Origin: an uncultured Klebsiella sp. | Lineage (GTDB): Bacteria; Verrucomicrobiota; Verrucomicrobiia; Limisphaerales; SXTU01 | Length of the DNA stretch: 62,833 nucleotides | Assembly: GCA_964591495.1 (NCBI GenBank) | Contig: CAZQEW010000007.1 | Coordinates: forward strand, 5,681 to 68,513 | Direction: 5' to 3' | Part shown: piece by piece, positions 15,956-26,602 of the stretch | Layout: each line of letters starts with the position of its first letter | Numbering within the stretch: position 1 is the first letter of the stretch | Translations under genes and position numbers: made by a program | The notes under the pieces: generated by a model | What the model saw: only the letters and a program-made list of their open reading frames with translations | Told to the model about the DNA's origin: nothing | Databases searched by the model: none

Positions 15956-18202
15956 ATGCAACCGCCGCCACTCCCCAGCCCTGTCCGTCGTGGCGCGCGC
16001 TGGTTGCTGGCGCTACTGGTGGCCGCGTCAGCCGCTGCTCCCGCGCAGGCGGCCGTCTCACGCGAAGAGGCGCTGGCCGCCAAGCTCGACCTGTGGGGCG
16101 AGGCCGCGCTGAAACAAACCAACGGCCCCAGCTACGAGTTCTTTGCCCCGCTGTTGCCACCGCTGCGTTACGTCAATGCGGACTTCCGCCATTACCCCAT
16201 CGTCCTCAGTGCGCCGGGCGCGCCAGTGAAGGCCCGACTCATCTCCAACGGCAGCGGTCTGAACCTTCGCGGCGGCACGCGCAGTTGGAACGACATCGGC
16301 ACGCCAGTCATTTTCCGCGTCGGCTCGGATGAGCTGCGCTTCGGCGAATTCATCGAGCGCGTCAATGGCCCACACTACGTGGACGGCTGGCTGCCCATCG
16401 TGCAGCTCGACTACGCTCACGCCGGCGTCCGTGTGGGACAAGAAGCCTTCGCGAGCACGGAGCCGGCACTCGCCGAACATGGCGTGGTGCTTGTGCAGTT
16501 TAAACTCACGGCCGGCGAGAAGGGCGCAGTCGCGCTCCAATGGGACACGCCCGCGCCGCCAACGGTCCAAGGCCAGACACTGCGCGACGAGCAGGGCCGC
16601 GTGCTCGCGTGGTTCGGCACCGCCTGGAAATGGCAGCGTCAGCGGCTCACGGCACCGCTGACGGAAACGGGCGTGGCCACCATCGCGCTCGCCACCAAGC
16701 CGATGGATGCGGCAACCCCTTCACCGCTGGTGAACGGCGGTTTCGGACGCCAGCGCGAGGCGTGCGTGAAGACATGGAAGGAACTGGTCGGGCGCGGAAT
16801 GCAGCTTTCCGTTCCAGAGCCGGTGGTGATGGCCGCGTGGCGCTCGCTGCTCGTGGGCACGCATGCGCTTGTCCGGAGCAACCGGATGCACTACAGCGCC
16901 GGCAATCAATACGACCGCCTTTATCAGGCCGAGGGCTGCGACGCGCTTCACGCGCTGCTCTGGTGGGGCCACGAAGTCCGGCCGCTCGCCATCTCCCAGC
17001 TCGATTTCACGCGCAAGGGGCTAGAGTTCCATCAGGCCGGCCACAAGCTCCAGCTTATGGCGCACCTCCGCGAGTTCACGCGGGATGACGCCTTCATACG
17101 CGAGATGCGCCCGCGTTGGGAGAAGGAGGTCCATCTCATTTTGAACAGCCGCACCAATGCCGAGGGCCTTTTCCCGCGCGAGCAATACTGCGGCGACATC
17201 GCCACGCCGGTCTATTCGCTGAACTCGAACGCCAAGTCCTGGCGCGCCCTCCGCGACTTCGCCGCGACGCTCGATTCAATGGGCGAGCGTGACGAAGCAA
17301 AGCGGCTGACCGTCGTCGCCGCCGAGTTCAAGCAGCGCATCCTTGCGGCCATCGAGAAAAGCACGCGCCCCGCGATGCCAGGCTTCGTGCCCATTGCGCT
17401 GTCCGGCGAGGAGGAACCTTACGACACCATCACCGCCACGAAGATGGGCAGCTACTGGAACCTCATGGCGAACTACGTCCTCGGCACCGGCATTCTTCCC
17501 GAGCCGCGCGAGCGCGGCCTGCTTGATTATCTCCAGCAGCGCGGCGGCCTCGTGATGGGCATGACTCGCTCGCGTCCCGGAGTATCTTTTTGGACCGGAC
17601 CACACAGCGCGAACCCGCTCTATGGCACACGCTACGTGCTGACGCTCCTGCGCCGCGACGAGCCGGACCGGGCGTTGGTGAGTTTCTACGGAATGCTGGC
17701 GCAGGGCTTCACACGCGACACATTTATCGCCGGCGAAGGCGGCTCGCTCACGCCGCTGGACGCGCACGGGCGGCTTTTCTACTGCCCGCCCAACAGCGCC
17801 GGCGACACCCACTTTCTCACCATGCTCCGGCATGTGCTCGTGCAGGACTGGGATGCCGACGATGACGGCAAGCCCGACACGCTTTGCCTGGCCTTCGCCA
17901 CGCCAAAACGCTGGCTGGAGGACGGGAAGGAGATAAAGGCAGAACACGCGCCGACCGCTTTTGGCGAAACCAGCCTGACCTTGCGCTCGCGCCTGAAGGC
18001 CGGTGAGGTGCTCGTCGAGTTCAGTCCGCCGCCGCGAGCGCCGAATCAAACCCTGCTCCGCGTCCGCGTGCCGGATGGCTGGCGCTCCGTCTCGGCACAC
18101 GCGGGCCAGCGCGAATTGAAGCTGGACGCGCAGGGCACGGTGGACGTCACCAGCGTGCGGGAGAGCGCAACATTAAGGTTCGCCGTGCGCCGCGTGAACT
18201 AG
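15956..18202 (+). CDS. hypothetical secreted protein, 748 aa, family not recognised
   Basis: Long ORF with protein-like composition. N-terminal signal-like RRGARWLLALLVAASAAAPAQA. No motif I can name. Confidence 0.7.
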   Translation: MQPPPLPSPVRRGARWLLALLVAASAAAPAQAAVSREEALAAKLDLWGEAALKQTNGPSYEFFAPLLPPLRYVNADFRHYPIVLSAPGAPVKARLISNGSGLNLRGGTRSWNDIGTPVIFRVGSDELRFGEFIERVNGPHYVDGWLPIVQLDYAHAGVRVGQEAFASTEPALAEHGVVLVQFKLTAGEKGAVALQWDTPAPPTVQGQTLRDEQGRVLAWFGTAWKWQRQRLTAPLTETGVATIALATKPMDAATPSPLVNGGFGRQREACVKTWKELVGRGMQLSVPEPVVMAAWRSLLVGTHALVRSNRMHYSAGNQYDRLYQAEGCDALHALLWWGHEVRPLAISQLDFTRKGLEFHQAGHKLQLMAHLREFTRDDAFIREMRPRWEKEVHLILNSRTNAEGLFPREQYCGDIATPVYSLNSNAKSWRALRDFAATLDSMGERDEAKRLTVVAAEFKQRILAAIEKSTRPAMPGFVPIALSGEEEPYDTITATKMGSYWNLMANYVLGTGILPEPRERGLLDYLQQRGGLVMGMTRSRPGVSFWTGPHSANPLYGTRYVLTLLRRDEPDRALVSFYGMLAQGFTRDTFIAGEGGSLTPLDAHGRLFYCPPNSAGDTHFLTMLRHVLVQDWDADDDGKPDTLCLAFATPKRWLEDGKEIKAEHAPTAFGETSLTLRSRLKAGEVLVEFSPPPRAPNQTLLRVRVPDGWRSVSAHAGQRELKLDAQGTVDVTSVRESATLRFAVRRVN

Positions 18203-18836: not shown

Positions 18837-20246
18837 ATGCGCCCCACGCTTCTCCTCGCCGCCTCGCTCTTCGCCATCGCCTTGCACGCCGCGAACTGGC
18901 CGCAGTTCCGCGGGCCCGACGCCGTCGCCTCTGCCGTCGGCACGGGCAAGGCCCCCGTTCACTTTGGGCCGAAGACCAATCTCGTCTGGAGCACCGAACT
19001 GCCGGCCGGCATTTCTTCCCCGGTGCTGTGGGGGAACCGCATCTTCCTCACGGGCGTGGACAACGGGAAACTCGTCACCCTCTCGCTCGACCGCGCCACG
19101 GGCAAAGTCCTCTGGACCCAGCCCGCGCCCGCGGAAAAGCTGGAAGCCGCCCACCGCATCGGCAGTCCTGCCGCGCCCACGGCCTGCACGGATGGCGAGC
19201 GCGTCATCAGCTACTTCGGCTCGTTCGGCCTGCTGGCGTATGACTTTGCGGGCAAGGAGCTATGGCGGCATCCGTTGCCCGTGCCCGTGGTTGAGTTCGG
19301 CTCCAGCAGCTCGCCCATCCTCGTCGGCGACCTCGTCATCCAGCTCTGCGACTCGGACATGGACTCCTTCCTCGTGGCCGTGGACAAGCGCACCGGCAAG
19401 CAGGTCTGGAAAACATCACGTCCCGACCATCGGCGCGGTTTCGCCACGCCCTTCGTCTGGCGGCACGACGGCATTGAGGAGCTCATCGTGAACGGCTCGC
19501 TCAAGCTTTCCGCCTACGACCCCAAGACTGGCGCGTTGCGCTGGACTTCCCGCGGCATGGCGCGCGTAGCGAACGCCTCGCCCACCGCCGGCGACGGCCT
19601 GCTGTTCATCGCGAGCTGGAACATCGGCAGTGACGCCGGCGACCGCCTCGCCTTGCCGCCGCACGCCGAGTTCCTCGCGCAGCACGACAAGAACAAGGAC
19701 GGCAAGCTGGCGAAGGAAGAGTTCCCCACCGGCCCGTTCAAGGACCGCTTCAGCCAGTTCGACCTCGACAAGGACGGTCTTGTGACCAAGGCCGAATACG
19801 AGGGCATGGCCGACCAATTTGTCCAGGCCGAGAATGCCATCTTCGCCGTGAAGCCCGGCGGGCGCGGCGAGATCTCCGGGACGCACATCGCATGGAAACA
19901 CAACCGCAGTCTGCCCTACGTGGCCTCGCCACTTTATCATCTGGGCCGGGTCTACACCGTGCGCAGCGGCGGCATGGCAACCTGTTACGACGCCAAGACC
20001 GGCGAGGTGATCTACCGTGACGAACGCTTGGGTGCATTGGGCGACTACTACTCCAGCCTCACGGCGGCGGACGGCAACGTTTATGCCATATCGCAGAAAG
20101 GGACCGTGACCGTTTTCAGCGGCAGCAACGCGCTCGAAGTGGTCGCCCGAAACGAAATGGGTGAAACGGTCATGTCCACGCCCGCCATCGTGGATGGCCG
20201 CATCTACCTCCGCACTGAGAAGCGCCTGATGTGCTTCGGCAAGTAA
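18837..20246 (+). CDS. secreted PQQ-like/BamB-like beta-propeller repeat protein with an inserted EF-hand pair
   Basis: 469 aa. Signal peptide MRPTLLLAASLFAIALHA. ANWPQFRG plus repeated W..-type blade motifs. Two canonical 12-residue Ca-binding loops, DKNKDGKLAKEE (19686-19721) and DLDKDGLVTKAE (19761-19796). Confidence 0.85.
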   Translation: MRPTLLLAASLFAIALHAANWPQFRGPDAVASAVGTGKAPVHFGPKTNLVWSTELPAGISSPVLWGNRIFLTGVDNGKLVTLSLDRATGKVLWTQPAPAEKLEAAHRIGSPAAPTACTDGERVISYFGSFGLLAYDFAGKELWRHPLPVPVVEFGSSSSPILVGDLVIQLCDSDMDSFLVAVDKRTGKQVWKTSRPDHRRGFATPFVWRHDGIEELIVNGSLKLSAYDPKTGALRWTSRGMARVANASPTAGDGLLFIASWNIGSDAGDRLALPPHAEFLAQHDKNKDGKLAKEEFPTGPFKDRFSQFDLDKDGLVTKAEYEGMADQFVQAENAIFAVKPGGRGEISGTHIAWKHNRSLPYVASPLYHLGRVYTVRSGGMATCYDAKTGEVIYRDERLGALGDYYSSLTAADGNVYAISQKGTVTVFSGSNALEVVARNEMGETVMSTPAIVDGRIYLRTEKRLMCFGK

Positions 20247-20290
20247 GCCGGTGCCGCAGCGCACGCGGACTTTCCCGTAGGCAAAGACAG

Positions 20291-20319
20291 TTGGCCGTGC
20301 CGCGCGTCTTTGGTAGCTT
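20291..20319 (+). promoter_or_regulatory. candidate sigma-70-type promoter for the WXG100-like/FtsK-like operon
   Basis: TTGGCC (20291-20296), a 17-nt spacer, then TAGCTT (20314-20319), about 45 nt upstream of ATG 20364. This is a weak consensus match by eye only. Confidence 0.2.
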
Positions 20320-20363
20320 TTCTCCGCCGCCCGCAGAACGCCGACGGCCATAAAACGCTCACC

Positions 20364-20636
20364 ATGTCCCAAGCCATCATTGACCCCGCCGAGGTGCGGC
20401 GCTTTGCGGAGGAGCTGCGCCGCTTCAACACCGATGTGTCCGAGCGCACCGCGCAGCTCTCGGCGCGTTTCGCCGCGCTGGGCGACTCCTGGCAGGACCA
20501 GGAGCACGCGAAGTTCGCCGAGGAATTCAAGCAGACCATGAAGGTGCTGCGGAAGTTCGTCGACGTCTCGAACCAGCACGCGCCCTTCCTCCTGCGCAAG
20601 GCTCAGAAAATCGAGGAATACCTCCACCAGCGCTGA
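20364..20636 (+). CDS. WXG100-like small helical protein (ESAT-6/EsxA-like), 90 aa, central W-Q-D in place of W-x-G
   Basis: MSQAIIDPAEVRRFAEELRRF...LSARFAALGDSWQDQEHAKFAEEFKQ... parallels YukE/EsxA-type I.V.PEEL..A... / ..W.G....AF...F. The W-Q-D lies at 20490-20498, which is aa 43-45 of 90. It is first in an operon with an EssC-like ATPase. The track start at 20310 is a TTG, and ATG 20364 is preferred. Confidence 0.7.
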   Translation: MSQAIIDPAEVRRFAEELRRFNTDVSERTAQLSARFAALGDSWQDQEHAKFAEEFKQTMKVLRKFVDVSNQHAPFLLRKAQKIEEYLHQR

Positions 20637-21166
20637 TGCCCGAAGCCGCCCGCATCACGTCCGTCGAGGCCATCGAGGCCTTCCGCGCCGACCTGCTCGT
20701 GTATCTGGAGAAGGCCCGCAACGTGGTGGACGAGGTGGGCGAGGAGGTAAAGCGGACGCACGGCTGGCTGCAGGATGACCGCGGGCCGCACTGGGCCCAG
20801 CAGGTCAAGCGCCGCACCGTCGCGTTGCAGGAGCGGCAGCAGGAGCTGTTCAGCGCGCAACTCGGCAACTTCAAGCACAACATCCAGGCCGAGCTGGTCG
20901 CCGTCCGCCGCGCCAAGCAGGCGCTGGAGGAGGCCGAGGAGAAGGTGAAGCTCGTGAAGCGCTGGCTGCGCGATTACCCCATCGAGGTCGAGCCGCTCGC
21001 CCGCCACGCGGACCTGCTCCGCCATGTGCTCGTGAGCGACATGGGCAAGGCCGTCGTGCTCCTCTCGCAGACCATCGAGGCGCTGCACGCCTACGCCGCC
21101 GTGAAGCCGCCAAGTGCGGAAACGGCCCCGCCAGCTCCAGCCCCGGACAGTCCGCCCGCCGCATGA
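20636..21166 (+). CDS. helical hypothetical protein (176 aa), possibly two WXG-like hairpins plus a Pro/Ala-rich tail
   Basis: Its start overlaps the upstream stop (TGATG). The composition favours helix formation. It has two W-L-[QR]-D turns, HGWLQDD at 20765-20776 and RWLRDY at 20963-20974, and a C-terminal tail PPSAETAPPAPAPDSPPAA. Confidence 0.65.
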   Translation: MPEAARITSVEAIEAFRADLLVYLEKARNVVDEVGEEVKRTHGWLQDDRGPHWAQQVKRRTVALQERQQELFSAQLGNFKHNIQAELVAVRRAKQALEEAEEKVKLVKRWLRDYPIEVEPLARHADLLRHVLVSDMGKAVVLLSQTIEALHAYAAVKPPSAETAPPAPAPDSPPAA

Positions 21167-21375
21167 GCCTCAACTCCACCCGCACGCGCCTGACCACGCT
21201 GACCAAGCAGCTCTCCATCCGTTGGCAGGAGACCCGCGAGCACTGGCAGGACGCGAAGGCCGGCGAGTTCGAAAAGCGCCACCTGGACGAACTGTTCAAC
21301 CGCGTGAACACCGCCGCCGCCAGCATCGAAGACCTGGAACGCGTGCTCGCCAAAATCCACCGCGACTGTGAGTAA
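21163..21375 (+). CDS. WXG100-like small helical protein, 70 aa, central W-Q-D
   Basis: ATGA overlap with the upstream gene. The motif REHWQDAKAGEFEKRHLDELF (W-Q-D at 21244-21252) has the W-x-[G/D]-x-x-A-x-x-F spacing of WXG100 proteins. An 8-nt overlap links it to the downstream ATPase gene. Confidence 0.6.
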   Translation: MSLNSTRTRLTTLTKQLSIRWQETREHWQDAKAGEFEKRHLDELFNRVNTAAASIEDLERVLAKIHRDCE

Positions 21376-24300
21376 TCTGCTTTCCGCCGCCGAAACACTT
21401 GATCTGTTGCACCGCCTGCGCGACGCGGTGCGGACCTTCAGCGCGCGAGAGGAGCAGCTCCAGCGTGAACAGCAGGCACAGGAGACGCGGCTCAAGCAAC
21501 GCTGTGAAGCCGTCTACGCCCAGCGCTCCGAGCAGCTTCAGGGCGAAATCACCGCGCTGGAAAACTCTCTGGCCGATGCCCGTGCCCAACTCGCCGTCCG
21601 CTGGGACAACCGCCGAGCCAGGCTTGATCGCGCGCACAAGAACGCCCTCCGCCAGCGCCTTGCCCGGGCTGAGGAGCGGGAAAACCAACGTAAATTCGAG
21701 CTGCAACGCGAGCTGCTCGCCGCGCAACGCGAGCGCGAAGCCGGCCTGAAAGCGGCCAGCAGCGCCCACGCTGAGTTCATGGCGCAGCTCAAGGTTGAGC
21801 GGGAATCGCTGTCCCAACTCACTGAGCGCGCCCGCGTCGCCCTGCGCGGCTACGGCAATTGGTCACGCCGGCTCCGCGCCGACACACGTGCCGGCGACAG
21901 GCAGTCGCCACCTGGCCTCCCGACCGACGGCGATCCAGATCATTCCCTCGCGCTGCTCTCCCAAAAGCTCTCCGCTGCGACCGCCGACTTGGAGCGCGTG
22001 CGTGCCACCGGCCTGCCTCTGGTGTTCAGCTATGTGCCGGTCTGGCTCGGCTGGGGCATCGTCATCCTGCTCGCGTGCCTGTTGAGCTTCACCGGAGCAT
22101 TGGGAACCGGCCTAGCGCGATTCGCCCCCCATTTTGCCGCTGCGGGACTGTCACTTGTTACGTTGCTGTATCTCATCGGGCGGGTCAGCGCCGAAAAACC
22201 CGCAGTATCGCTTGCGCTCGCCCTCAGTGAGGCGGCGCAGCTCTCCACCGACTGCGAGCAGCTGGCCAAAGCCCGCCGCCAAGCCGAGGAACAGCGCGTT
22301 GAGCAGGTGGCTGCCGCCGTCGGCCAACGGCACGAGGATGCATGGAGCAAGGCACTGGGCGAAACCGATGCGACCAAAACGCAATGCAAACAGGAGATGG
22401 AGGCCAAGCTGCAGCGAGTAACGCAGCGCTACGAACGGCTGCGCGCGATGACGACGAATGCCTTCGAGCAGGCCAACGCAGCACGACTCGCGGCAGCGAA
22501 AACCAATGCGGACGATGAATTGCACGGCCTAGCCATCGCCAACGAGACCTCGCAGATGACTGTCGCGAACCAGCGTGAGTCCGCGTGGCTGGCTTTGGCT
22601 GCAGAGTGGCGGGCGGCCACGGAGCCAGTCTTCACGGCGCTCGGCGCGTTACAGCGCTCGGCTGCGGGGCAGTTTCCCATGTGGTCGCCCGAGTTGGCAC
22701 GACAGTGGAACGCGCCAGCCCAGTTCGGTCACGCCGCGCAGTTTGCCCGGCTCGACGTGGACGTGGCGAAGCTCGCCGGCGCGCTCCCACGCAATCCGCG
22801 CCTCGCGCTGCCCGGCCCGGCGAGCTTTTCCGTGCCGCTGCTGCTCACATTGCCCCAGCTCGCCTCGCTGGTCGTCGAGACGAAGGGCGACGGACGTGAG
22901 CAAGCCATCGCCACGCTGAACGACACCGTTCTCCGCCTGCTCGCCAGCGCGCCGCCGGGCCGCCTGAGCTTCACGCTGGTGGACCCGGTCGAGCTGGGCC
23001 GCAGTTTCTCCGGGCTGATGCACCTCGGCGATTACGACGACCGGCTCATCAACAGCCGCATCTGGACGCAACCCGCGCATGTCGAGCAGCAGCTAGCGCT
23101 GCTCAACGACCACATCGAGAAGGTCTCGCAGATGTATCTCCGCAACGAGTTTACAACTGTCGCGGACTACAACGCGCAGGCCGGGCGCATTGCGGAGCGC
23201 TACCACTTTCTCGTCGTGGCGGACTTTCCGGCGAACTTCTCGGACACGGCGCTGCGGCGGCTCGCAAGCATCATCGCGGGTGGCGCGCGCTGCGGCGTTC
23301 ACGTGCTGCTGCACTGGGATCAACGCAAGCCAGCGGCGGCGGAATTGCCGGGAGAAGAATTGCGCGCGGCCAGCGTGAACCTGCGGCGTGAGGGAAACGT
23401 CTTTGCCGTCGGCGGGGAAATCCTTCCCGGTGTCACGCTCGTGCTGGAACCGCCGCCGTCGCCGGAGATTGCGACGGAATTGCTCCACCAGGTCGGCCGG
23501 GCCAGCGTAAACGCGAACCGCGTGCAAGTGCCGTTCACAGATATCGCGCCGGCGGCAGACGCGACGTGGTCGCTGGACACGGCGGAGGAGTTGCGCGTGC
23601 CCATCGGGCGCACGGGCGCGACGAAGCTGCAATACCTCAGCCTGGGCAAGGGCACGCGCCAGCACGCGCTCGTGGCGGGCAAGACCGGCTCCGGCAAGTC
23701 CACGCTCTTTCACGTCATCATCACGGACCTCGCGCTGTGGTGCAGCCCGGAACAGGTGGAGTTTTACCTCGTGGACTTCAAGAAGGGCGTCGAGTTCCGC
23801 TGCTACGCGGCGCACCGGCTGCCGCACGCGCGCGTGGTGGCCATCGAAAGCGACCGCGAGTTTGGCCTGAGCGTGCTGGCGCGGTTCGACGAGGAGCTGA
23901 AGCGCCGCGGCGAGCTGTTCCGGAAGGCCGGCGCACAGGATTTGCCCGGCTACCGGCGGCTGAGCGGCGCAACACTGCCGCGCACGCTGCTGCTGATTGA
24001 CGAGTTTCAGGAATTCTTTGTCGCGGACGACAAGGTGGCACAGGGCGCGGCGCTGTTGCTGGACCGCATCGTGCGGCAGGGCCGGGCGTTCGGGATCCAC
24101 GTCATCCTCGTTTCACAAACGCTGGGCGGTGCCTACTCGCTCGCGCGTGCGACGTTGGGGCAAATGGTGGTGCGCATCGCGCTCCAGTGCAACGAAGCCG
24201 ACGCCGCGCTCATCATGGAGGACAACAACCCCGCGCCGCGCCTGCTCTCGCGGCCGGGCGAGGCGATTTACAACGACGAGGCCGGCGGGGTCACGGGCAA

Positions 24301-25261
24301 CAGTCCGTTCCAAACCGTGTGGGTGTCGGACACCGAGCGCGAGGAATGGCTGGCGAAGGTCAGCGCACGGGCGCAGGCCGACGGCGTGAAGCGACCGGCG
24401 CCCGTGGTCTTCGAGGGCAATGCGCCGGCGGACGTGCGGGACAACGAATTGCTGGGCGCGGCGCTTGCGTCTCCCAATCAGGCAGAAATTCCCCGCGTAT
24501 GGCTGGGCGCGCCGAACTCAATCAAAGGCCCGACGGAGGCGGTGTTCAACCGGCAGAGTGGCAACAACCTGCTCATCGTCGGCCAGCGCGACGAGGCGGC
24601 GCTCGCGATGCTTGGCGTGTCGCTCGTTGCGCTCGCGGCGCAAGGCGCAGCACGGCTCGTTGTGCTCGAAGCCAGCCCGCCGGAGTCGCCACAGAAGCGG
24701 TTCTTCGAGTCCGTGACGCGGGCGATTCCGCGCGGCTGCACGCTGGCGAAGGCCGGCGACTTGGAAACGCTGATGGCGGAGCTGGACTCAGAGTTGAAGC
24801 GACGGCTGGCCGTAGACCACGGCGCGGGTGCGCCGCCGTGTTTCCTGTTCGTCCACGAGTTGCAGAAGTTCAAGAAGCTGCGGCACGAGGATGATTTCAG
24901 CTTCGCGTCGGACGAATCGAGGCCGCCGGCCCCCGGAGCGGTCTTTGAGCGGCTCATCACCGAAGGCCCGGGCGTGGGCATGCACGTCATCGTCACGTGT
25001 GACAGCTATAACAGCCTGGCGCGCGCGATGAGCCGGAAGTGCATCAGCGAGTTCGAGCTGCGCGGGCTGTTCCAGATGAGCGCGAACGACTCGGCCACGC
25101 TGTGCGACTCGCCCGCCGCCTCCGATCTCGGCCTGCACCGTGCGCTGCTGCACAACGGGCAGATGGGATTCCTGGAGACGTTCAGACCATATGCAATGCC
25201 TGAGGCGGAATGGCTCGAGGAGGCCGGGCGGTCGTTGGCGCAGGCAGCAACCGGACGGTGA
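21368..25261 (+). CDS. membrane FtsK/SpoIIIE-family ATPase, EssC/EccC-like (coiled coil, 2 TM, coiled coil, 3 P-loop-like domains)
   Basis: 1297 aa with a GTG start. The TM hairpin LPLVFSYVPVWLGWGIVILLACLL / FAAAGLSLVTLLYLIGRV lies at about 22012-22185. There is one canonical Walker A, LVAGKTGSGKST (23678-23704), and Walker B LLLIDEFQEF (23987-24004), with FGIHVILVSQ following. The flanking FtsK-like domains have degenerate P-loops (VETKGDGREQA and LIVGQRDEAAL). Confidence 0.9.
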   Translation: MSNLLSAAETLDLLHRLRDAVRTFSAREEQLQREQQAQETRLKQRCEAVYAQRSEQLQGEITALENSLADARAQLAVRWDNRRARLDRAHKNALRQRLARAEERENQRKFELQRELLAAQREREAGLKAASSAHAEFMAQLKVERESLSQLTERARVALRGYGNWSRRLRADTRAGDRQSPPGLPTDGDPDHSLALLSQKLSAATADLERVRATGLPLVFSYVPVWLGWGIVILLACLLSFTGALGTGLARFAPHFAAAGLSLVTLLYLIGRVSAEKPAVSLALALSEAAQLSTDCEQLAKARRQAEEQRVEQVAAAVGQRHEDAWSKALGETDATKTQCKQEMEAKLQRVTQRYERLRAMTTNAFEQANAARLAAAKTNADDELHGLAIANETSQMTVANQRESAWLALAAEWRAATEPVFTALGALQRSAAGQFPMWSPELARQWNAPAQFGHAAQFARLDVDVAKLAGALPRNPRLALPGPASFSVPLLLTLPQLASLVVETKGDGREQAIATLNDTVLRLLASAPPGRLSFTLVDPVELGRSFSGLMHLGDYDDRLINSRIWTQPAHVEQQLALLNDHIEKVSQMYLRNEFTTVADYNAQAGRIAERYHFLVVADFPANFSDTALRRLASIIAGGARCGVHVLLHWDQRKPAAAELPGEELRAASVNLRREGNVFAVGGEILPGVTLVLEPPPSPEIATELLHQVGRASVNANRVQVPFTDIAPAADATWSLDTAEELRVPIGRTGATKLQYLSLGKGTRQHALVAGKTGSGKSTLFHVIITDLALWCSPEQVEFYLVDFKKGVEFRCYAAHRLPHARVVAIESDREFGLSVLARFDEELKRRGELFRKAGAQDLPGYRRLSGATLPRTLLLIDEFQEFFVADDKVAQGAALLLDRIVRQGRAFGIHVILVSQTLGGAYSLARATLGQMVVRIALQCNEADAALIMEDNNPAPRLLSRPGEAIYNDEAGGVTGNSPFQTVWVSDTEREEWLAKVSARAQADGVKRPAPVVFEGNAPADVRDNELLGAALASPNQAEIPRVWLGAPNSIKGPTEAVFNRQSGNNLLIVGQRDEAALAMLGVSLVALAAQGAARLVVLEASPPESPQKRFFESVTRAIPRGCTLAKAGDLETLMAELDSELKRRLAVDHGAGAPPCFLFVHELQKFKKLRHEDDFSFASDESRPPAPGAVFERLITEGPGVGMHVIVTCDSYNSLARAMSRKCISEFELRGLFQMSANDSATLCDSPAASDLGLHRALLHNGQMGFLETFRPYAMPEAEWLEEAGRSLAQAATGR

Positions 25262-25342
25262 GCCGCTCGCGGCCAAATCGGTGCAATTTTCGTCAGTTCT
25301 TGGCTTGCACACCGGCACACCCGCACTAAACTACGCACACGT

Positions 25343-26602
25343 ATGAATTCTGAGAACACCTACGACGCCATTGTCATCGGCGGCGGTCCTTCCGGTTCCT
25401 CCTCCTCCTACATTCTCTCCGAGCATGGCCACCGCGTGCTGCTGCTCGAGCGGGAGAAGTTTCCGCGCTATCACATCGGTGAGTCCATGATTCCCTTCAC
25501 CTACGGGCCGATGGAGCGGCTGGGCCTCATCCCCCGGATGAAGCAGTCGCATTTTGTGAAAAAATACAGCGTGGTCTTCATCTCCCCCAACGGGAAGGTC
25601 AGCACGCCGTTTTACTTCTTCAACCGCTACGACCGCGAGACCGTCGCGCAGACGTGGCAGGTGCTCCGCAGCGAACTCGATCAGATGCTCCTCGACCATA
25701 CGCGCAGCAAGGGCACCACGGTGAAGGAGGAGACCACCGTCAAGGAACTGCTCCGCGAGAACGGGCGCGTCGTCGGTGTGCGCGCTCAACATAAGGACGG
25801 CTCCGTGGCGGAGTATCGCGCCCCCATCACGCTGGACTGCACGGGCAAGGAAGCCTTTGCCGCCGTGCGCAATGGCTGGCGCACGCGCGATCCTTATCTG
25901 AACAAGGTCGCCGTCTGGACCTACTACAAGGGCTCGAAACGCGAGCCGGGCATTGACGAGGGCCAGACCGCCGTGGCCTATGTGCCGGACAAGGGCTGGT
26001 TCTGGCACATCCCGCAGCACGACGACATGCTAAGCGTGGGAGTCGTGGCCGAAGGCAAGTATCTGACGCGCGGTGGGGTGCGCGATCCCAAGGACATCTT
26101 CAACCGTGAGGTCGAGCAGAACGTATGGATCAAGGAACACCTGTCCGTCGGCCAGCAGGTTGGCCCTTACTACGTGACCAGTGAATACACCCAGCATGCG
26201 CGCCACTGTGGCAGCGCGGGCCTGTTGCTGGTGGGCGATGCCTTCGCGTTTCTCGACCCTGTGTTTAGCAGCGGCCTGATGCTGGCGCTCAAGAGCGGCG
26301 TGCTGGCCGGCGACGAGGTCCACAAGGCGATCGAGGCAAACGACTTTTCCCCGGCCCGCTTCACCCATTACGCCACGACGATGCGTCTGGGCGTGGAGAA
26401 CATGCGGAAGCTGGTATATGCCTTTTACGATCCGAACTTCTCTTTCAAGGACGTGATCATGAAGTATCCCGAGGCCGGCGGCGAGATCACCGACTGCCTC
26501 AGCGGGGATGTGAACAAGGACTTCGAGCCGCTCTGGCGCAAGATCCGCGAGTTCGTCCCGCTGCCAGATGACTTGCCGCTCGGGCAGCCAATGGCAAATT
26601 AG
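25343..26602 (+). CDS. FAD-dependent oxidoreductase (geranylgeranyl-reductase / flavin-halogenase-like family)
   Basis: 419 aa. Rossmann dinucleotide motif YDAIVIGGGPSGSS, LLLEREKFPRYHIGES, and LLLVGDAFAFLDPVFSSG (GD motif). Confidence 0.85.
   Translation: MNSENTYDAIVIGGGPSGSSSSYILSEHGHRVLLLEREKFPRYHIGESMIPFTYGPMERLGLIPRMKQSHFVKKYSVVFISPNGKVSTPFYFFNRYDRETVAQTWQVLRSELDQMLLDHTRSKGTTVKEETTVKELLRENGRVVGVRAQHKDGSVAEYRAPITLDCTGKEAFAAVRNGWRTRDPYLNKVAVWTYYKGSKREPGIDEGQTAVAYVPDKGWFWHIPQHDDMLSVGVVAEGKYLTRGGVRDPKDIFNREVEQNVWIKEHLSVGQQVGPYYVTSEYTQHARHCGSAGLLLVGDAFAFLDPVFSSGLMLALKSGVLAGDEVHKAIEANDFSPARFTHYATTMRLGVENMRKLVYAFYDPNFSFKDVIMKYPEAGGEITDCLSGDVNKDFEPLWRKIREFVPLPDDLPLGQPMAN

What the first reader, a model, noticed from the sequence alone, without database searches (positions are those of the whole stretch)
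21368..25261. Unusual domain plan of the EssC-like ATPase: coiled coil instead of FHA, and a degenerate / canonical / degenerate P-loop series
The first 215 aa or so are heptad-like E/R/Q/A/L coiled coil with no FHA-type sequence. A TM hairpin follows at about 22012-22185, and then a second coiled-coil stretch of about 150 aa.

Three FtsK-like domains come next:
- Domain 1 (about 22860-23400) has VETKGDGREQA where Walker A should be, and LVVADF as its Walker-B remnant.
- Domain 2 has perfect GKTGSGKST (23678-23704) and LLLIDEFQEF (23987-24004).
- Domain 3 (about 24500-25250) has LIVGQRDEAAL and FLFVHELQ.

This resembles a shortened EccC (DUF-like domain + D1 + one substrate-binding domain) more than EssC. 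I do not recognise the N-terminal coiled-coil module from described T7SS ATPases. Degenerate C-terminal domains in EccC/EssC are the substrate-recognition sites.
Basis: seen in the sequence. Interest (0 to 1): 0.7.

Follow-up and report, generated by a model that had tools for sequence, protein, structure and literature searches.

The report
Membrane-anchored coiled-coil EssC-like ATPase
This gene encodes a real, widely conserved motor protein of Verrucomicrobia that resembles the type VII secretion ATPase but has one working engine between two dead ones and hangs from the membrane on a fixed-length helical stalk; soluble relatives with this layout were already described by computer analysis, and none has been tested at the bench.

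Summary
ORF 21368-25261 (1297 aa) carries every quoted motif. Its order is:
- a 150-residue helix
- a TM hairpin
- a 160-residue helix
- three RecA/FtsK-like domains, of which only the middle one keeps Walker A and B (invariant in 121 homologues)

There is no FHA domain and no C-terminal DNA-binding domain.

The interpretation needs correcting. The nearest relatives are neither EccC nor EssC. They belong to a third clade, the coiled-coil EssC-like ATPases of WXG100/FtsK modules found in TerY-P triad and Type III-A CoCoNuT loci. Bell et al. 2024 (eLife) already described that clade as having [quoted passage not shown].

This protein is the stand-alone, membrane-anchored variant: the tip of the coiled-coil hairpin is a TM hairpin. 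It is the last gene of a four-gene cassette (WXG100, 176 aa, 70 aa, ATPase). The cassette is complete in 55 of 57 species genomes examined, and at least 593 species genomes carry the family-specific first domain. The two long helices are almost free of indels: 142 residues in 172 of 195 sequences, and 118 residues in 184 of 195.

The most likely role is an ATP-driven, minimal type-VII-like handler or exporter of WXG100-type hairpins at the inner membrane. This is untested. I rate it a new variant of a known kind, of moderate interest.

The parts
20364..20636 (+). WXG100 protein (90 aa from the ATG; the turn reads W-Q-D rather than W-x-G)
   Evidence: Pfam WXG100, E 5.5e-9. It is the only WXG100 hit in the genome. 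It is 36% identical (E 8e-22) to the WXG100 of the Caballeronia TerY-P locus. It is conserved at 60-90% across 66 species genomes, including the C-terminal tail.
20636..21166 (+). 176-aa helical protein (p176), second gene of the cassette
   Evidence: No Pfam family. Present in 56 of 57 loci with a full-length ATPase and enough upstream DNA. No significant similarity to WXG100 or to the coiled-coil nuclease of TerY-P loci.
21163..21375 (+). 70-aa helical protein (p70), third gene; its stop overlaps the ATPase start by 8 nt
   Evidence: Present in 55 of 57 loci. The C-terminal D-C-E is nearly invariant. Similarity to WXG100 is limited to the W-x-D turn and is not significant (E 0.028, probability 1.7%).
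21368..25261 (+). Membrane-anchored coiled-coil EssC-like ATPase, 1297 aa
   Evidence: Full-length homologues of about 1295 aa at 50-98% identity, with source names such as Limisphaerales, Pedosphaera and Verrucomicrobiota.
21386..21841 (+). N-terminal long helix, aa 7-158 (first arm of the coiled coil)
   Evidence: AlphaFold2 helix with pLDDT above 95. Heptad score above the 99th percentile of shuffles. Residues 17-158 number exactly 142 in 172 of 195 homologues.
22034..22192 (+). TM hairpin: TM1 at aa 223-242, loop of about 7 residues, TM2 at aa 250-275
   Evidence: Kyte-Doolittle above 1.5. AlphaFold2 helices. Present in 215 of 218 family members. Charge distribution follows the positive-inside rule.
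22193..22672 (+). Second long helix, aa 276-435, continuous with TM2 (second arm, the stalk)
   Evidence: AlphaFold2 single helix 250-435. Residues 290-407 number exactly 118 in 184 of 195 homologues. The distance from TM2 to Walker A is 497.5 +/- 6.8 aa in 215 sequences.
22733..23524 (+). Domain 1, aa 456-719: degenerate RecA/FtsK-like domain. It has E-T-x-x-x-G-R-[ED] at the P-loop position and VVADFP at the Walker B position.
   Evidence: 93% probability vs domain 3. The domain 1 stretch aa 484-648 (VETKGDGREQ at 503-512) aligns with the P-loop-bearing stretch of the Caballeronia central domain (GKTGAGKS), at a non-significant E of 0.098. The profile matches only the first domain of the Rhodococcus, Caballeronia and Deinococcus relatives (66-116 bits).
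23552..24379 (+). Domain 2, aa 729-1004: the only canonical FtsK/SpoIIIE motor domain. Walker A is at 23678-23704 and Walker B at 23987-24016. The GRAFG motif aligns with the GRS/GRA motif of EccC D1.
   Evidence: Pfam FtsK_SpoIIIE, E 9e-28. Best PDB matches are EccC D1, EccC5 and YukB. Walker A and B are invariant in 121 sequences.
24404..25258 (+). Domain 3, aa 1013-1297: degenerate RecA/FtsK-like domain. It has G-Q-R-[DE]-E at the P-loop position and F-L-F-[IV]-H-[GE]-L-Q at the Walker B position. There is no gamma or winged-helix domain after it.
   Evidence: hhalign vs domain 2: 97.8% probability, E 1e-12. Weak EccC5/EccC profile hits at E 0.003-0.007. The model ends with one helix at aa 1280-1294.

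Best explanation
**What it is (shown).** The protein is a membrane-anchored member of the coiled-coil EssC-like branch of the FtsK/HerA superfamily.
- Two indel-free helices of about 150 residues flank a TM hairpin. In the model they resemble an intramolecular antiparallel coiled coil of roughly 20 nm.
- The hairpin tip sits in the cytoplasmic membrane, and both termini are in the cytoplasm.
- At the cytoplasmic end of the stalk sit three RecA-like domains. Only the middle one can bind and hydrolyse ATP.
- The gene is translationally coupled to three small helical proteins, one of which is a bona fide WXG100. Together they form a four-gene cassette that moves as a unit between genomic sites.

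**How it most likely works (inferred).**
- Like EccC, EssC and FtsK, it assembles into a ring, most likely a hexamer.
- Domain 2 supplies the power stroke.
- The two dead domains serve as docking or regulatory surfaces. Domain 3 may bind the conserved C-terminal tails of the WXG100 and 70-aa proteins, by analogy with EsxB binding to D3 of EccC.
- The machine delivers WXG100-type hairpin proteins to or across the inner membrane at the bundle of 12 TM helices.

It is therefore a stand-alone, minimal type-VII-like module. It is not an orthologue of the T7SSa or T7SSb ATPases.
For: **Anatomy.**

**Clade membership.**
- tblastn of domain 2.
- Collinear three-domain alignments with the Rhodococcus and Caballeronia proteins.
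- HMM score matrix and tree.
- The Caballeronia locus reads VWA, WXG100, 436 aa, 113 aa, 76 aa, FtsK-like, CARF, VWA, PP2C, kinase. This matches the published description in PMC11090510.

**Link to WXG100.**
-.
- Same gene order in L001 and L003 and in 10 genomes of the phylum, with unrelated flanks.
- Cassette complete in 55 of 57 loci.
- WXG100 homologous to that of the TerY-P locus.

**T7SS-type rather than DNA-pump type.**
- EccCa profile 110 bits vs FtsK profile 25 bits.
- PDB: EccC 6e-33 vs FtsK 4e-9.
- The genome has a separate true FtsK (231 bits).
- There is no C-terminal DNA-binding domain.

**Membrane anchoring.** Conserved in 215 of 218 members.

**Expression.** Lake and river metatranscriptome contigs at 99% identity or more touch all four genes.

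**Literature.** The WxG + FtsK pair is called a minimal type VII set and a stand-alone secretion system (PMC4978471; PMC11090510).
Against: - No experiment exists for any member of this clade.
- Close relatives in the same phylum (L026, L027) and on plasmids have no TM segment at all, yet keep WXG100. The ancestral job of this ATPase/WXG100 pair therefore need not be export.
- If the second helix is straight, the ATPase ring sits about 20 nm from the membrane. This is unlike EccC and makes direct hand-over to a membrane pore awkward.
- The periplasmic loop is only about 7 residues. No outer-membrane or periplasmic component is conserved next to the cassette.
- YukD, EccB and YukC families are absent from the genome.
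- The WXG100 is unusually conserved for a secreted effector.
- The antiparallel pairing of the two helices rests on one monomer AlphaFold2 model and non-significant fold matches. I could not inspect its contacts.
Confidence: 0.5

Rival explanations
1. It is a conflict or stress module rather than a secretion system. The ring works on the cytoplasmic side as an unfoldase or remodeller of the WXG100-type hairpins, or of nucleic acid. The membrane anchor only localises it. One possibility is that it releases membrane-active WXG100 proteins into the cell's own membrane as an abortive-infection or stress response.
For: - The nearest relatives sit in TerY-P triad / CoCoNuT-type loci with VWA, PP2C, kinase, CARF and AAA genes, or are fused to TerD among TerD genes. 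They lack TM segments.
- Bell et al. state that a mechanism other than classical secretion is likely for the soluble forms.
- Distribution is patchy (14 of 401 genomes in the phylum sample) and the insertion site changes between genomes, as for mobile conflict systems.
- The WXG100 is highly conserved.
Against: - The PVC cassette has lost every sensor and nuclease partner. In the three contexts read, it lies among housekeeping genes, not in defence islands.
- PADLOC gives only generic FtsK-domain hits such as SspH and mad8.
- Strict conservation of a TM hairpin and of stalk length suggests the membrane is part of the mechanism and not merely an address.
Confidence: 0.27
2. It is a DNA translocase of the FtsK/SpoIIIE/TraB kind, for example the motor of a DNA-transfer apparatus, as the 2012 comparative-genomics paper is recalled to have predicted for the Esx-like module of Ter loci.
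For: - Domain 2 belongs to the FtsK/SpoIIIE family.
- The FtsK motor and the conjugation coupling protein TcpA are significant fold matches.
- From memory, the abstract of Anantharaman et al. 2012 calls the module the centre of a predicted DNA-transfer apparatus. I could not open that paper.
Against: - There is no gamma or winged-helix domain at the C-terminus.
- T7SS ATPase profiles and structures score far higher than FtsK.
- The tandem three-domain plan with dead flanking domains is typical of EccC/EssC, not of DNA pumps.
- The genome has its own FtsK.
- No relaxase, integrase or conjugation genes flank the cassette.
Confidence: 0.07
3. It is an ordinary T7SS ATPase (an EccC/EssC orthologue) whose partner membrane components are encoded elsewhere in the genome.
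For: - Best PDB sequence and fold hits are EccC and EssC.
- It is linked to WXG100.
- It has two TM helices ahead of tandem P-loop domains.
Against: - NCBIfam equivalog scores are far below the cut-offs: 110 vs 509, 93 vs 347, and 84.5 vs 778.
- There are three domains, not four, and only one Walker A.
- No YukD/EsaB, EccB or YukC/EssB was found in a 94%-complete genome, while the positive controls rang.
- It groups apart from EssC/EccC D1 and D2 in the tree.
- Published T7SS subtypes a to j are confined to Actinomycetota and Bacillota (PMC11217815).
Confidence: 0.05

Closest known systems
EssC-like FtsK ATPases of WXG100/FtsK modules in TerY-P triad and Type III-A CoCoNuT loci (Bell et al., eLife 2024, PMC11090510; Anantharaman et al. 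2012 as cited there). Examples read here: Caballeronia sp. SBC2 pSBC2-5 (L109) and the same-phylum loci L026 and L027.
   Same: - Three tandem ATPase domains with only the central one active.
- A long N-terminal coiled coil instead of FHA.
- An adjacent homologous WXG100 with a W-Q-D turn (36% identity, E 8e-22).
- The three-domain unit is collinear (30-32% identity; E 9e-80 to 5e-109).
- Domain 2 is 43% identical.
   Different: - The window's protein has a conserved TM hairpin in the middle of the coiled coil, and so is membrane-anchored.
- Its cassette stands alone. It has no VWA, PP2C, kinase, CARF, coiled-coil nuclease or McrBC-type genes.
- Its second and third genes (176 aa and 70 aa) show no detectable similarity to the corresponding genes of those loci.
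H. pylori stand-alone WXG100 + FtsK/SpoIIIE pair (HP0062 / HP0066), called a 'WXG100 secretion system' and a minimal type VII set in PMC4978471
   Same: - A Gram-negative, diderm host.
- WXG100 plus an FtsK-like ATPase, without other known T7SS components.
- Functionally untested.
   Different: I did not compare the sequences or the architecture of HP0066. Whether it has the coiled-coil / TM-hairpin module is unknown to me.
EccC (T7SSa) and EssC (T7SSb) secretion ATPases
   Same: - Two TM helices followed by tandem FtsK-like domains.
- The catalytic domain is most similar to their D1 (77-96 bits).
- A degenerate domain precedes the catalytic one, as the DUF/D0 domain does.
- The last domain is degenerate, as is D3 of EssC.
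- Linked to WXG100.
   Different: - One fewer ATPase domain, and only one Walker A site.
- A 215-aa coiled-coil arm precedes the TM hairpin, instead of nothing (EccC) or FHA domains (EssC).
- A 160-residue helix separates TM2 from the first domain.
- No EccB/D/E, MycP, EssA/B, EsaA or EsaB partners.
- Curated family cut-offs are not reached.
FtsK / SpoIIIE DNA translocases
   Same: The P-loop motor fold of domain 2, and a membrane anchor.
   Different: - No gamma domain.
- Two extra dead RecA-like domains.
- Far lower profile scores (25 bits).
- A separate FtsK exists in the genome.

Membership tests
Coiled-coil EssC-like ATPases of WXG100/FtsK modules (Bell 2024 / Anantharaman 2012) | Three tandem ATPase domains, with only the central one keeping Walker A and B | tested here: met
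   The published definition was read.
Coiled-coil EssC-like ATPases of WXG100/FtsK modules (Bell 2024 / Anantharaman 2012) | N-terminal coiled coil of about 200 residues or more, in place of FHA domains | tested here: met
   No FHA domain. Helix 7-158 with pLDDT above 95. Heptad score.
Coiled-coil EssC-like ATPases of WXG100/FtsK modules (Bell 2024 / Anantharaman 2012) | Collinear sequence homology of the whole three-domain unit with members in TerY-P / Ter loci | tested here: met
   E 5e-109 with Rhodococcus and 9e-80 with Caballeronia. Domain 1 and domain 3 profiles hit only this clade strongly.
Coiled-coil EssC-like ATPases of WXG100/FtsK modules (Bell 2024 / Anantharaman 2012) | Operonic WXG100 protein, plus a second WXG100-like protein without W-x-G | tested here: inconclusive
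   The first WXG100 is met. Whether p70 is a WXG100-fold protein is not shown (hhalign E 0.028, probability 1.7%).
Coiled-coil EssC-like ATPases of WXG100/FtsK modules (Bell 2024 / Anantharaman 2012) | No transmembrane helices (soluble protein), as described for the CoCoNuT-associated forms | tested here: not met
   A TM hairpin is conserved in 215 of 218 members of the PVC family. I therefore file it as a variant of this kind.
Coiled-coil EssC-like ATPases of WXG100/FtsK modules (Bell 2024 / Anantharaman 2012) | Embedded between VWA genes next to a TerY-P triad or a CoCoNuT core | tested here: not met
   The neighbours in the window, L001 and L003 are unrelated housekeeping-type genes. The literature also mentions a stand-alone form.
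T7SS ATPase EccC / EssC | Reaches the curated equivalog cut-offs (TIGR03924, TIGR03925, TIGR03928) | tested here: not met
   110 vs 509, 93 vs 347, and 84.5 vs 778 bits.
T7SS ATPase EccC / EssC | Two TM helices followed by four nucleotide-binding-type domains (DUF/D0, D1, D2, D3) | tested here: not met
   Two TM helices are present, but only three domains follow. The four-domain definition is from PMC11217815.
T7SS ATPase EccC / EssC | [quoted passage not shown] | tested here: not met
T7SS ATPase EccC / EssC | Genomic linkage to a WXG100 gene | tested here: met
T7SS ATPase EccC / EssC | Co-occurrence with subtype-specific core components (EccB/D/E or EssA/EssB/EsaA/EsaB) | tested here: not met
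   The YukD, EccB and YukC Pfam families are absent from the own genome, while the control genomes rang. EccE, EssA and EsaA were not searched.
FtsK / SpoIIIE DNA translocase | C-terminal gamma (winged-helix) DNA-recognition domain after a single motor | tested here: not met
   The model ends in domain 3 plus one helix. The FtsK equivalog scores 25 vs 1566 bits.
Any of the above | Ring (hexamer) assembly and ATP-driven substrate translocation | not testable with these tools
   This needs biochemistry or multimer modelling.

The most novel reading that the evidence does not exclude
The four-gene cassette is a complete, self-sufficient type-VII-like exporter of diderm PVC bacteria. Six ATPase protomers would contribute 12 TM helices that form the only membrane channel. 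The indel-free 142- and 118-residue helix pairs would form a rigid stalk or cage of about 20 nm that fixes the distance between the motor ring and the membrane, acting as a molecular ruler. The WXG100 and 70-aa hairpins would be threaded along it. This would be a new architectural class of protein-translocation machine, derived from a soluble conflict-system motor by turning the coiled-coil tip into a TM hairpin.
Probability: 0.22. Interest if true: 0.75.

Novelty: new variant of a known kind. Interest (0 to 1): 0.45.

Why it matters
- **Where type VII-like machinery occurs.** Type VII secretion is regarded as a Gram-positive and mycobacterial system. The ten published subtypes (T7SSa to T7SSj) are all in Actinomycetota or Bacillota. 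This family places an EssC-like motor with WXG100 partners in at least 593 species-level genomes, almost all Verrucomicrobiota, with a conserved membrane anchor.
- **A minimal system to study.** If it exports protein, it would be the smallest T7-like apparatus known. That would make it a simple system for asking how an EssC-type ring moves folded helical hairpins.
- **A clue to evolution.** The same motor occurs in soluble form in antiviral or stress loci and in membrane-anchored form here. This gives a natural comparison for how a cytoplasmic conflict-system ATPase might become a membrane machine, or the reverse.
- **An unexplained constraint.** The strict conservation of helix length at only about 30% sequence identity calls for a structural explanation.

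Tried and rejected
- **Domain 1 vs solved structures.** A profile search of domain 1 against PDB sequences found nothing. Homology of domain 1 to the EccC DUF/D0 domain therefore remains a positional guess.
- **Domain 1 vs domain 2.** Direct hhalign was not significant (E 0.065). The link holds only through domain 3 and through a weak BLAST segment.
- **Small proteins against each other.** hhalign of WXG100 vs p70, WXG100 vs p176, and p70 vs p176 was not significant in any pair.
- **Small proteins against TerY-P-locus genes.** p176 and p70 against the 436-aa, 110-aa and 80-aa genes of TerY-P-type loci gave no significant match.
- **N-arm vs stalk.** The profile match (95.8% probability) cannot be separated from coiled-coil composition bias. 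I do not treat it as evidence of duplication.
- **N-terminal model vs PDB.** Foldseek returned only generic antiparallel coiled coils (MukB elbow, Rad50, SMC, chemoreceptor), all above E 1e-3.
- **Length covariation of the two arms.** This could not be tested, because neither arm varies in length.
- **TM hairpin vs the tip of soluble relatives.** The alignment to the short hydrophobic tip of L026 and L027 has only 42% probability. It is suggestive only.
- **Promoter and terminator scan.** Nothing was found.
- **Literature.** Searches for T7SS or WXG100 in Verrucomicrobiota gave only a passing citation of Sutcliffe 2011. Anantharaman et al. 2012 is not held.
- **Upstream PQQ propeller.** The PQQ/EF-hand propeller upstream is not part of the system, because it is absent next to the cassette in L001 and L003.

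Full report

Yes. The window is 65.5% G+C. Its neighbours carry DUF1501, PSCyt and PSD1 families typical of the PVC superphylum. ORF 21368-25261 on the + strand is open for 1297 codons from a GTG. That GTG overlaps the stop codon of the preceding 70-aa gene by 8 nt.

The only slip is the end coordinate of the Walker B motif, which is 24016 and not 24004.

**2. N-terminal module**

- Pfam finds no FHA domain. It finds only a single FtsK_SpoIIIE match at aa 744-919 (E 9e-28).
- AlphaFold2 on aa 1-470, with an alignment of 57 family members, gives a confident model (mean pLDDT 87; above 95 along the long helices). It shows one helix at 7-158, short helices in 163-220, TM1 at 223-242, a low-confidence loop of 7 residues, and then one uninterrupted helix at 250-435.
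- Hydrophobicity puts the hairpin at aa 216-275.
- A crude heptad score is above the 99th percentile of shuffles in parts of 1-150 and of 326-375.
- Foldseek of this model finds only long intramolecular antiparallel coiled coils (MukB elbow, Rad50, SMC, chemoreceptor). None is below E 1e-3. The fold is therefore generic coiled coil and nothing else.
- Across 205 homologues, the hairpin flanks carry 3.0-3.4 Lys+Arg per 20 residues. The roughly 7-residue loop carries 0.6. There is no signal peptide and the ATPase domains need cytoplasmic ATP. Both termini are therefore cytoplasmic, by inference.

**3. The three domains**

- AlphaFold2 on aa 430-1297 (mean pLDDT 76.5) gives three alpha/beta domains. 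Their strands and helices come in the same order. The quoted motifs sit exactly at the strand-loop-helix (P-loop) position and at the Walker B strand position of each domain.
- The best PDB fold match is the three-ATPase cytoplasmic fragment of Thermomonospora curvata EccC (4nh0; E 4e-29; 979 aligned columns against 861 residues). Next come EccC D2-D3, EssC D2-D3, the FtsK motor and TcpA. TM-scores are low, 0.33-0.6, as expected when inter-domain angles differ.
- On family alignments, hhalign relates domain 3 to domain 2 (97.8% probability, E 1e-12) and domain 1 to domain 3 (93%, E 3e-7). Domain 1 vs domain 2 is not significant.
- A BLAST segment pairs the domain 1 stretch aa 484-648 with the stretch of a relative's central domain that carries the live P-loop GKTGAGKS. 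Its E of 0.098 is not significant.
- After domain 3 there is one helix and the stop codon, so there is no gamma or winged-helix domain.
- In 121 homologues, the Walker A and B motifs of domain 2 are invariant. The substitutes are themselves conserved: E-T-x-x-x-G-R-[ED] and VVADFP in domain 1, and G-Q-R-[DE]-E and F-L-F-[IV]-H-[GE]-L-Q in domain 3. These are fixed non-catalytic domains, not decaying copies.

**4. How large is the family, and what travels with it?**

- More than 7000 database proteins match. Full-length members are about 1295 aa, and the source names are Limisphaerales, Pedosphaera or Verrucomicrobiota.
- An exhaustive HMMER search with aa 1-720 finds 803 clusters (at 50% identity) with E below 1e-30. 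Most intact members listed are about 1300 aa.
- The family-specific first domain is encoded in at least 593 species-level genomes. The best 80 are nearly all Verrucomicrobiota, and include the cultured Verrucomicrobium sp. BvORR106.
- In an even sample of the phylum it occurs in 14 of 401 genomes and 12 of 184 genera, so the distribution is patchy.
- The gene is always last in the order WXG100 (90 aa), about 176 aa, 70 aa, ATPase.
  - This holds in L001 and L003, where the flanks are unrelated.
  - It holds in ten more genomes of the phylum, down to 36-40% ATPase identity.
  - In 55 of 57 species genomes with enough flanking DNA the cassette is complete. In 50 of them it is in the same order within 1.5 kb.
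- The PQQ/EF-hand propeller upstream in the window is not part of the cassette.
- The genome has its own FtsK elsewhere (231 bits) and a single WXG100 gene. It has no YukD/EsaB, EccB or YukC/EssB, while the positive controls rang.
- Metatranscriptome contigs from lakes and rivers at 99% identity or more touch all four genes. This is weak support for expression, because such libraries can contain DNA.

**5. What it is really related to**

- Searching domain 2 against plasmids shows that EccC and EssC are not the closest relatives. The best hits are 'FtsK/SpoIIIE domain' proteins of a Rhodococcus plasmid (43%, 6e-67), Caballeronia pSBC2-5 (43%, 7e-57), Deinococcus and Helicobacter. EccCa reaches only 32% (1e-14).
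- The Caballeronia locus reads VWA, WXG100, 436 aa, 113 aa, 76 aa, FtsK-like (927 aa), CARF, VWA, PP2C, Ser/Thr kinase, AAA.
- The Rhodococcus protein (1322 aa) starts with what reads by eye as a TerD-like N-terminus. It has no TM hairpin and lies among TerD genes.
- Two genomes of the window's own phylum carry a 1060-aa version without TM segments, in the same VWA ... PP2C - kinase setting (L026, L027).
- The whole three-domain unit of the window's protein is collinear with these proteins: aa 485-1279 vs Rhodococcus (32% identity, E 5e-109) and aa 526-1275 vs Caballeronia (30%, E 9e-80). The WXG100 proteins are homologous (36%, E 8e-22).
- Family HMMs of domains 1 and 3 hit only this clade strongly (66-116 and 33-105 bits).
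- The domain 2 HMM scores, in bits (E-values there refer to a six-sequence set):

| Target | Score (bits) |
|---|---|
| This clade | 168-291 |
| EssC D1 | 96 |
| EccC D1 | 77 |
| EssC D2 | 62 |
| EccC D2 | 52 |
| E. coli FtsK | 36 |

- In a small maximum-likelihood tree, EssC and EccC D1 and D2 group together (96/97). They lie apart from a cluster in which the PVC proteins and all soluble Ter-associated proteins except the Deinococcus one intermingle. The branches are long and each reference group has a single sequence, so only this coarse split should be trusted.

**6. Comparison with the literature**

- Garrett et al. 2024 define T7SSa to T7SSj, all in Actinomycetota or Bacillota. They describe EccC as two TM helices plus four nucleotide-binding domains (PMC11217815).
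- Bell et al. [quoted passage not shown] These have three ATPase domains of which only the central one is predicted active. [quoted passage not shown] They are accompanied by two WXG100 proteins, one without W-x-G. Citing Anantharaman et al. [quoted passage not shown] - A citation of Sutcliffe 2011 records WXG100 proteins in Verrucomicrobiae and Lentisphaerae.
- The P-loop plan and the coiled-coil head are therefore already described. I found no description of the membrane-anchored form in which a TM hairpin interrupts the coiled coil. I could not open the 2012 paper.

- **The anchor is the rule in this family.** 215 of 218 members have the hairpin.
- **The two arms almost never gain or lose a residue.**
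  - The segment aligned to aa 17-158 has exactly 142 residues in 172 of 195 sequences.
  - The segment aligned to aa 290-407 has exactly 118 residues in 184 of 195 sequences.
  - Sequence identity there is only about 27-33%.
  - Length variation is confined to the linker 159-220.
  - The distance from TM2 to Walker A is 497.5 +/- 6.8 residues.
  - Such length conservation fits two helices that pair in register along their whole length, and a fixed distance between membrane and motor. At about 0.15 nm per residue that distance is roughly 20 nm (inference).
- **A possible origin of the anchor.** A low-confidence profile alignment (42% probability) places the TM hairpin opposite a short hydrophobic turn in the middle of the coiled coil of the soluble relatives. 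This hints that the anchor arose at the tip of a pre-existing hairpin.

**8. Mechanism**

Shown:
- one catalytic site per chain
- two fixed dead RecA-like domains
- a membrane anchor with minimal periplasmic exposure
- a rigid-length helical stalk
- translational coupling to, and co-inheritance with, a WXG100 and two small helical proteins whose C-terminal tails are highly conserved

Inferred by analogy with EccC, EssC and FtsK (established knowledge of these families):
- assembly into a ring
- domain 2 acts as the motor
- domain 3, and perhaps domain 1, acts as a docking or regulatory surface for the hairpin proteins
- those proteins are delivered to or across the inner membrane

The main doubts:
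- Soluble relatives keep the same WXG100 partner, so the pair's basic activity may be cytoplasmic remodelling in a conflict or stress system.
- The motor appears to sit far from the membrane.
- Nothing is seen that would take a substrate across the outer membrane.

I put about 0.5 on the minimal T7-like export or insertion reading, 0.27 on a non-secretory conflict or stress role, 0.07 on DNA translocation, and 0.05 on an ordinary T7SS with hidden partners.

**9. Verdict**

The finding is a correct piece of sequence reading. The family is large and experimentally untouched. Its defining domain plan is already in the literature for soluble homologues, and earlier reports of this scan reached the same family in other genomes. 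It is a new variant, membrane-anchored and stand-alone, of a known kind. Interest is moderate.

Noticed in passing
L026 2713-11999 and L027 3273-10017 (genomes G160 and G260, same phylum): Here a soluble 1060-aa relative of the ATPase (no TM segment) sits in a different cassette. The order is VWA, WXG100, a coiled-coil protein of about 440 aa, 110 aa, 82 aa, then the ATPase. In L026 this is followed by VWA-like, PP2C-like and Ser/Thr-kinase-like ORFs. This is the TerY-P / CoCoNuT-type context, and it is almost identical in order to the Caballeronia plasmid pSBC2-5 (L109).
   Followed up: partly
L110 6706-10674 (Rhodococcus sp. AH-ZY2 plasmid): A 1322-aa relative carries what reads by eye as a TerD-like N-terminus, instead of the coiled-coil/TM module. 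It lies next to two TerD-family genes and a DUF475 gene. In the domain 2 tree its nearest neighbour is the WXG-less Verrucomicrobial protein of L024.
   Followed up: partly
L024 5818-9666 and L025 5859-9725 (genomes G169 and G289): These are full-length, TM-bearing ATPases at 36-40% identity. No WXG100, p176 or p70 gene was detectable upstream by BLAST. Either the small genes are too diverged or this clade is an orphan.
   Followed up: no
window 20364-20636 and 21163-21375: The WXG100 protein is far more conserved across 66 species (most columns 90% or more, including the tail LLRKAQRIEEYL) than the ATPase's own coiled coil. The 70-aa protein ends in a nearly invariant D-C-E. Both tails are candidates for docking signals.
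   Followed up: partly
window 18837-20246: A PQQ/BamB-like propeller with an EF-hand lies directly upstream on the same strand. It is not found next to the cassette in L001 or L003, so the adjacency looks coincidental.
   Followed up: partly
L029, L032, L065, L072, L075, L088, L101 (genome contigs records): Contigs that encode this Verrucomicrobia-type ATPase at 55-86% identity are titled 'uncultured Klebsiella sp.', 'uncultured Bifidobacterium sp.' or 'Bifidobacteriaceae'. Others are titled Limnocylindrales, Acidoferrum, Methylomirabilota or Bacteroidetes at the same identity level. These organism labels are probably wrong or the contigs mis-binned. They should not be read as a wide phylogenetic spread.
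   Followed up: no
window 15956-18202: A 748-aa ORF on the + strand has no Pfam match at E of 0.01 or below.
   Followed up: no
window 19800-25400: The organism, or very close strains, is present in many river, lake, estuary and aquaculture metagenomes (word shares 0.73-0.98). One run of unknown type (X44) holds a 95-99% identical strain variant across the operon.
   Followed up: partly
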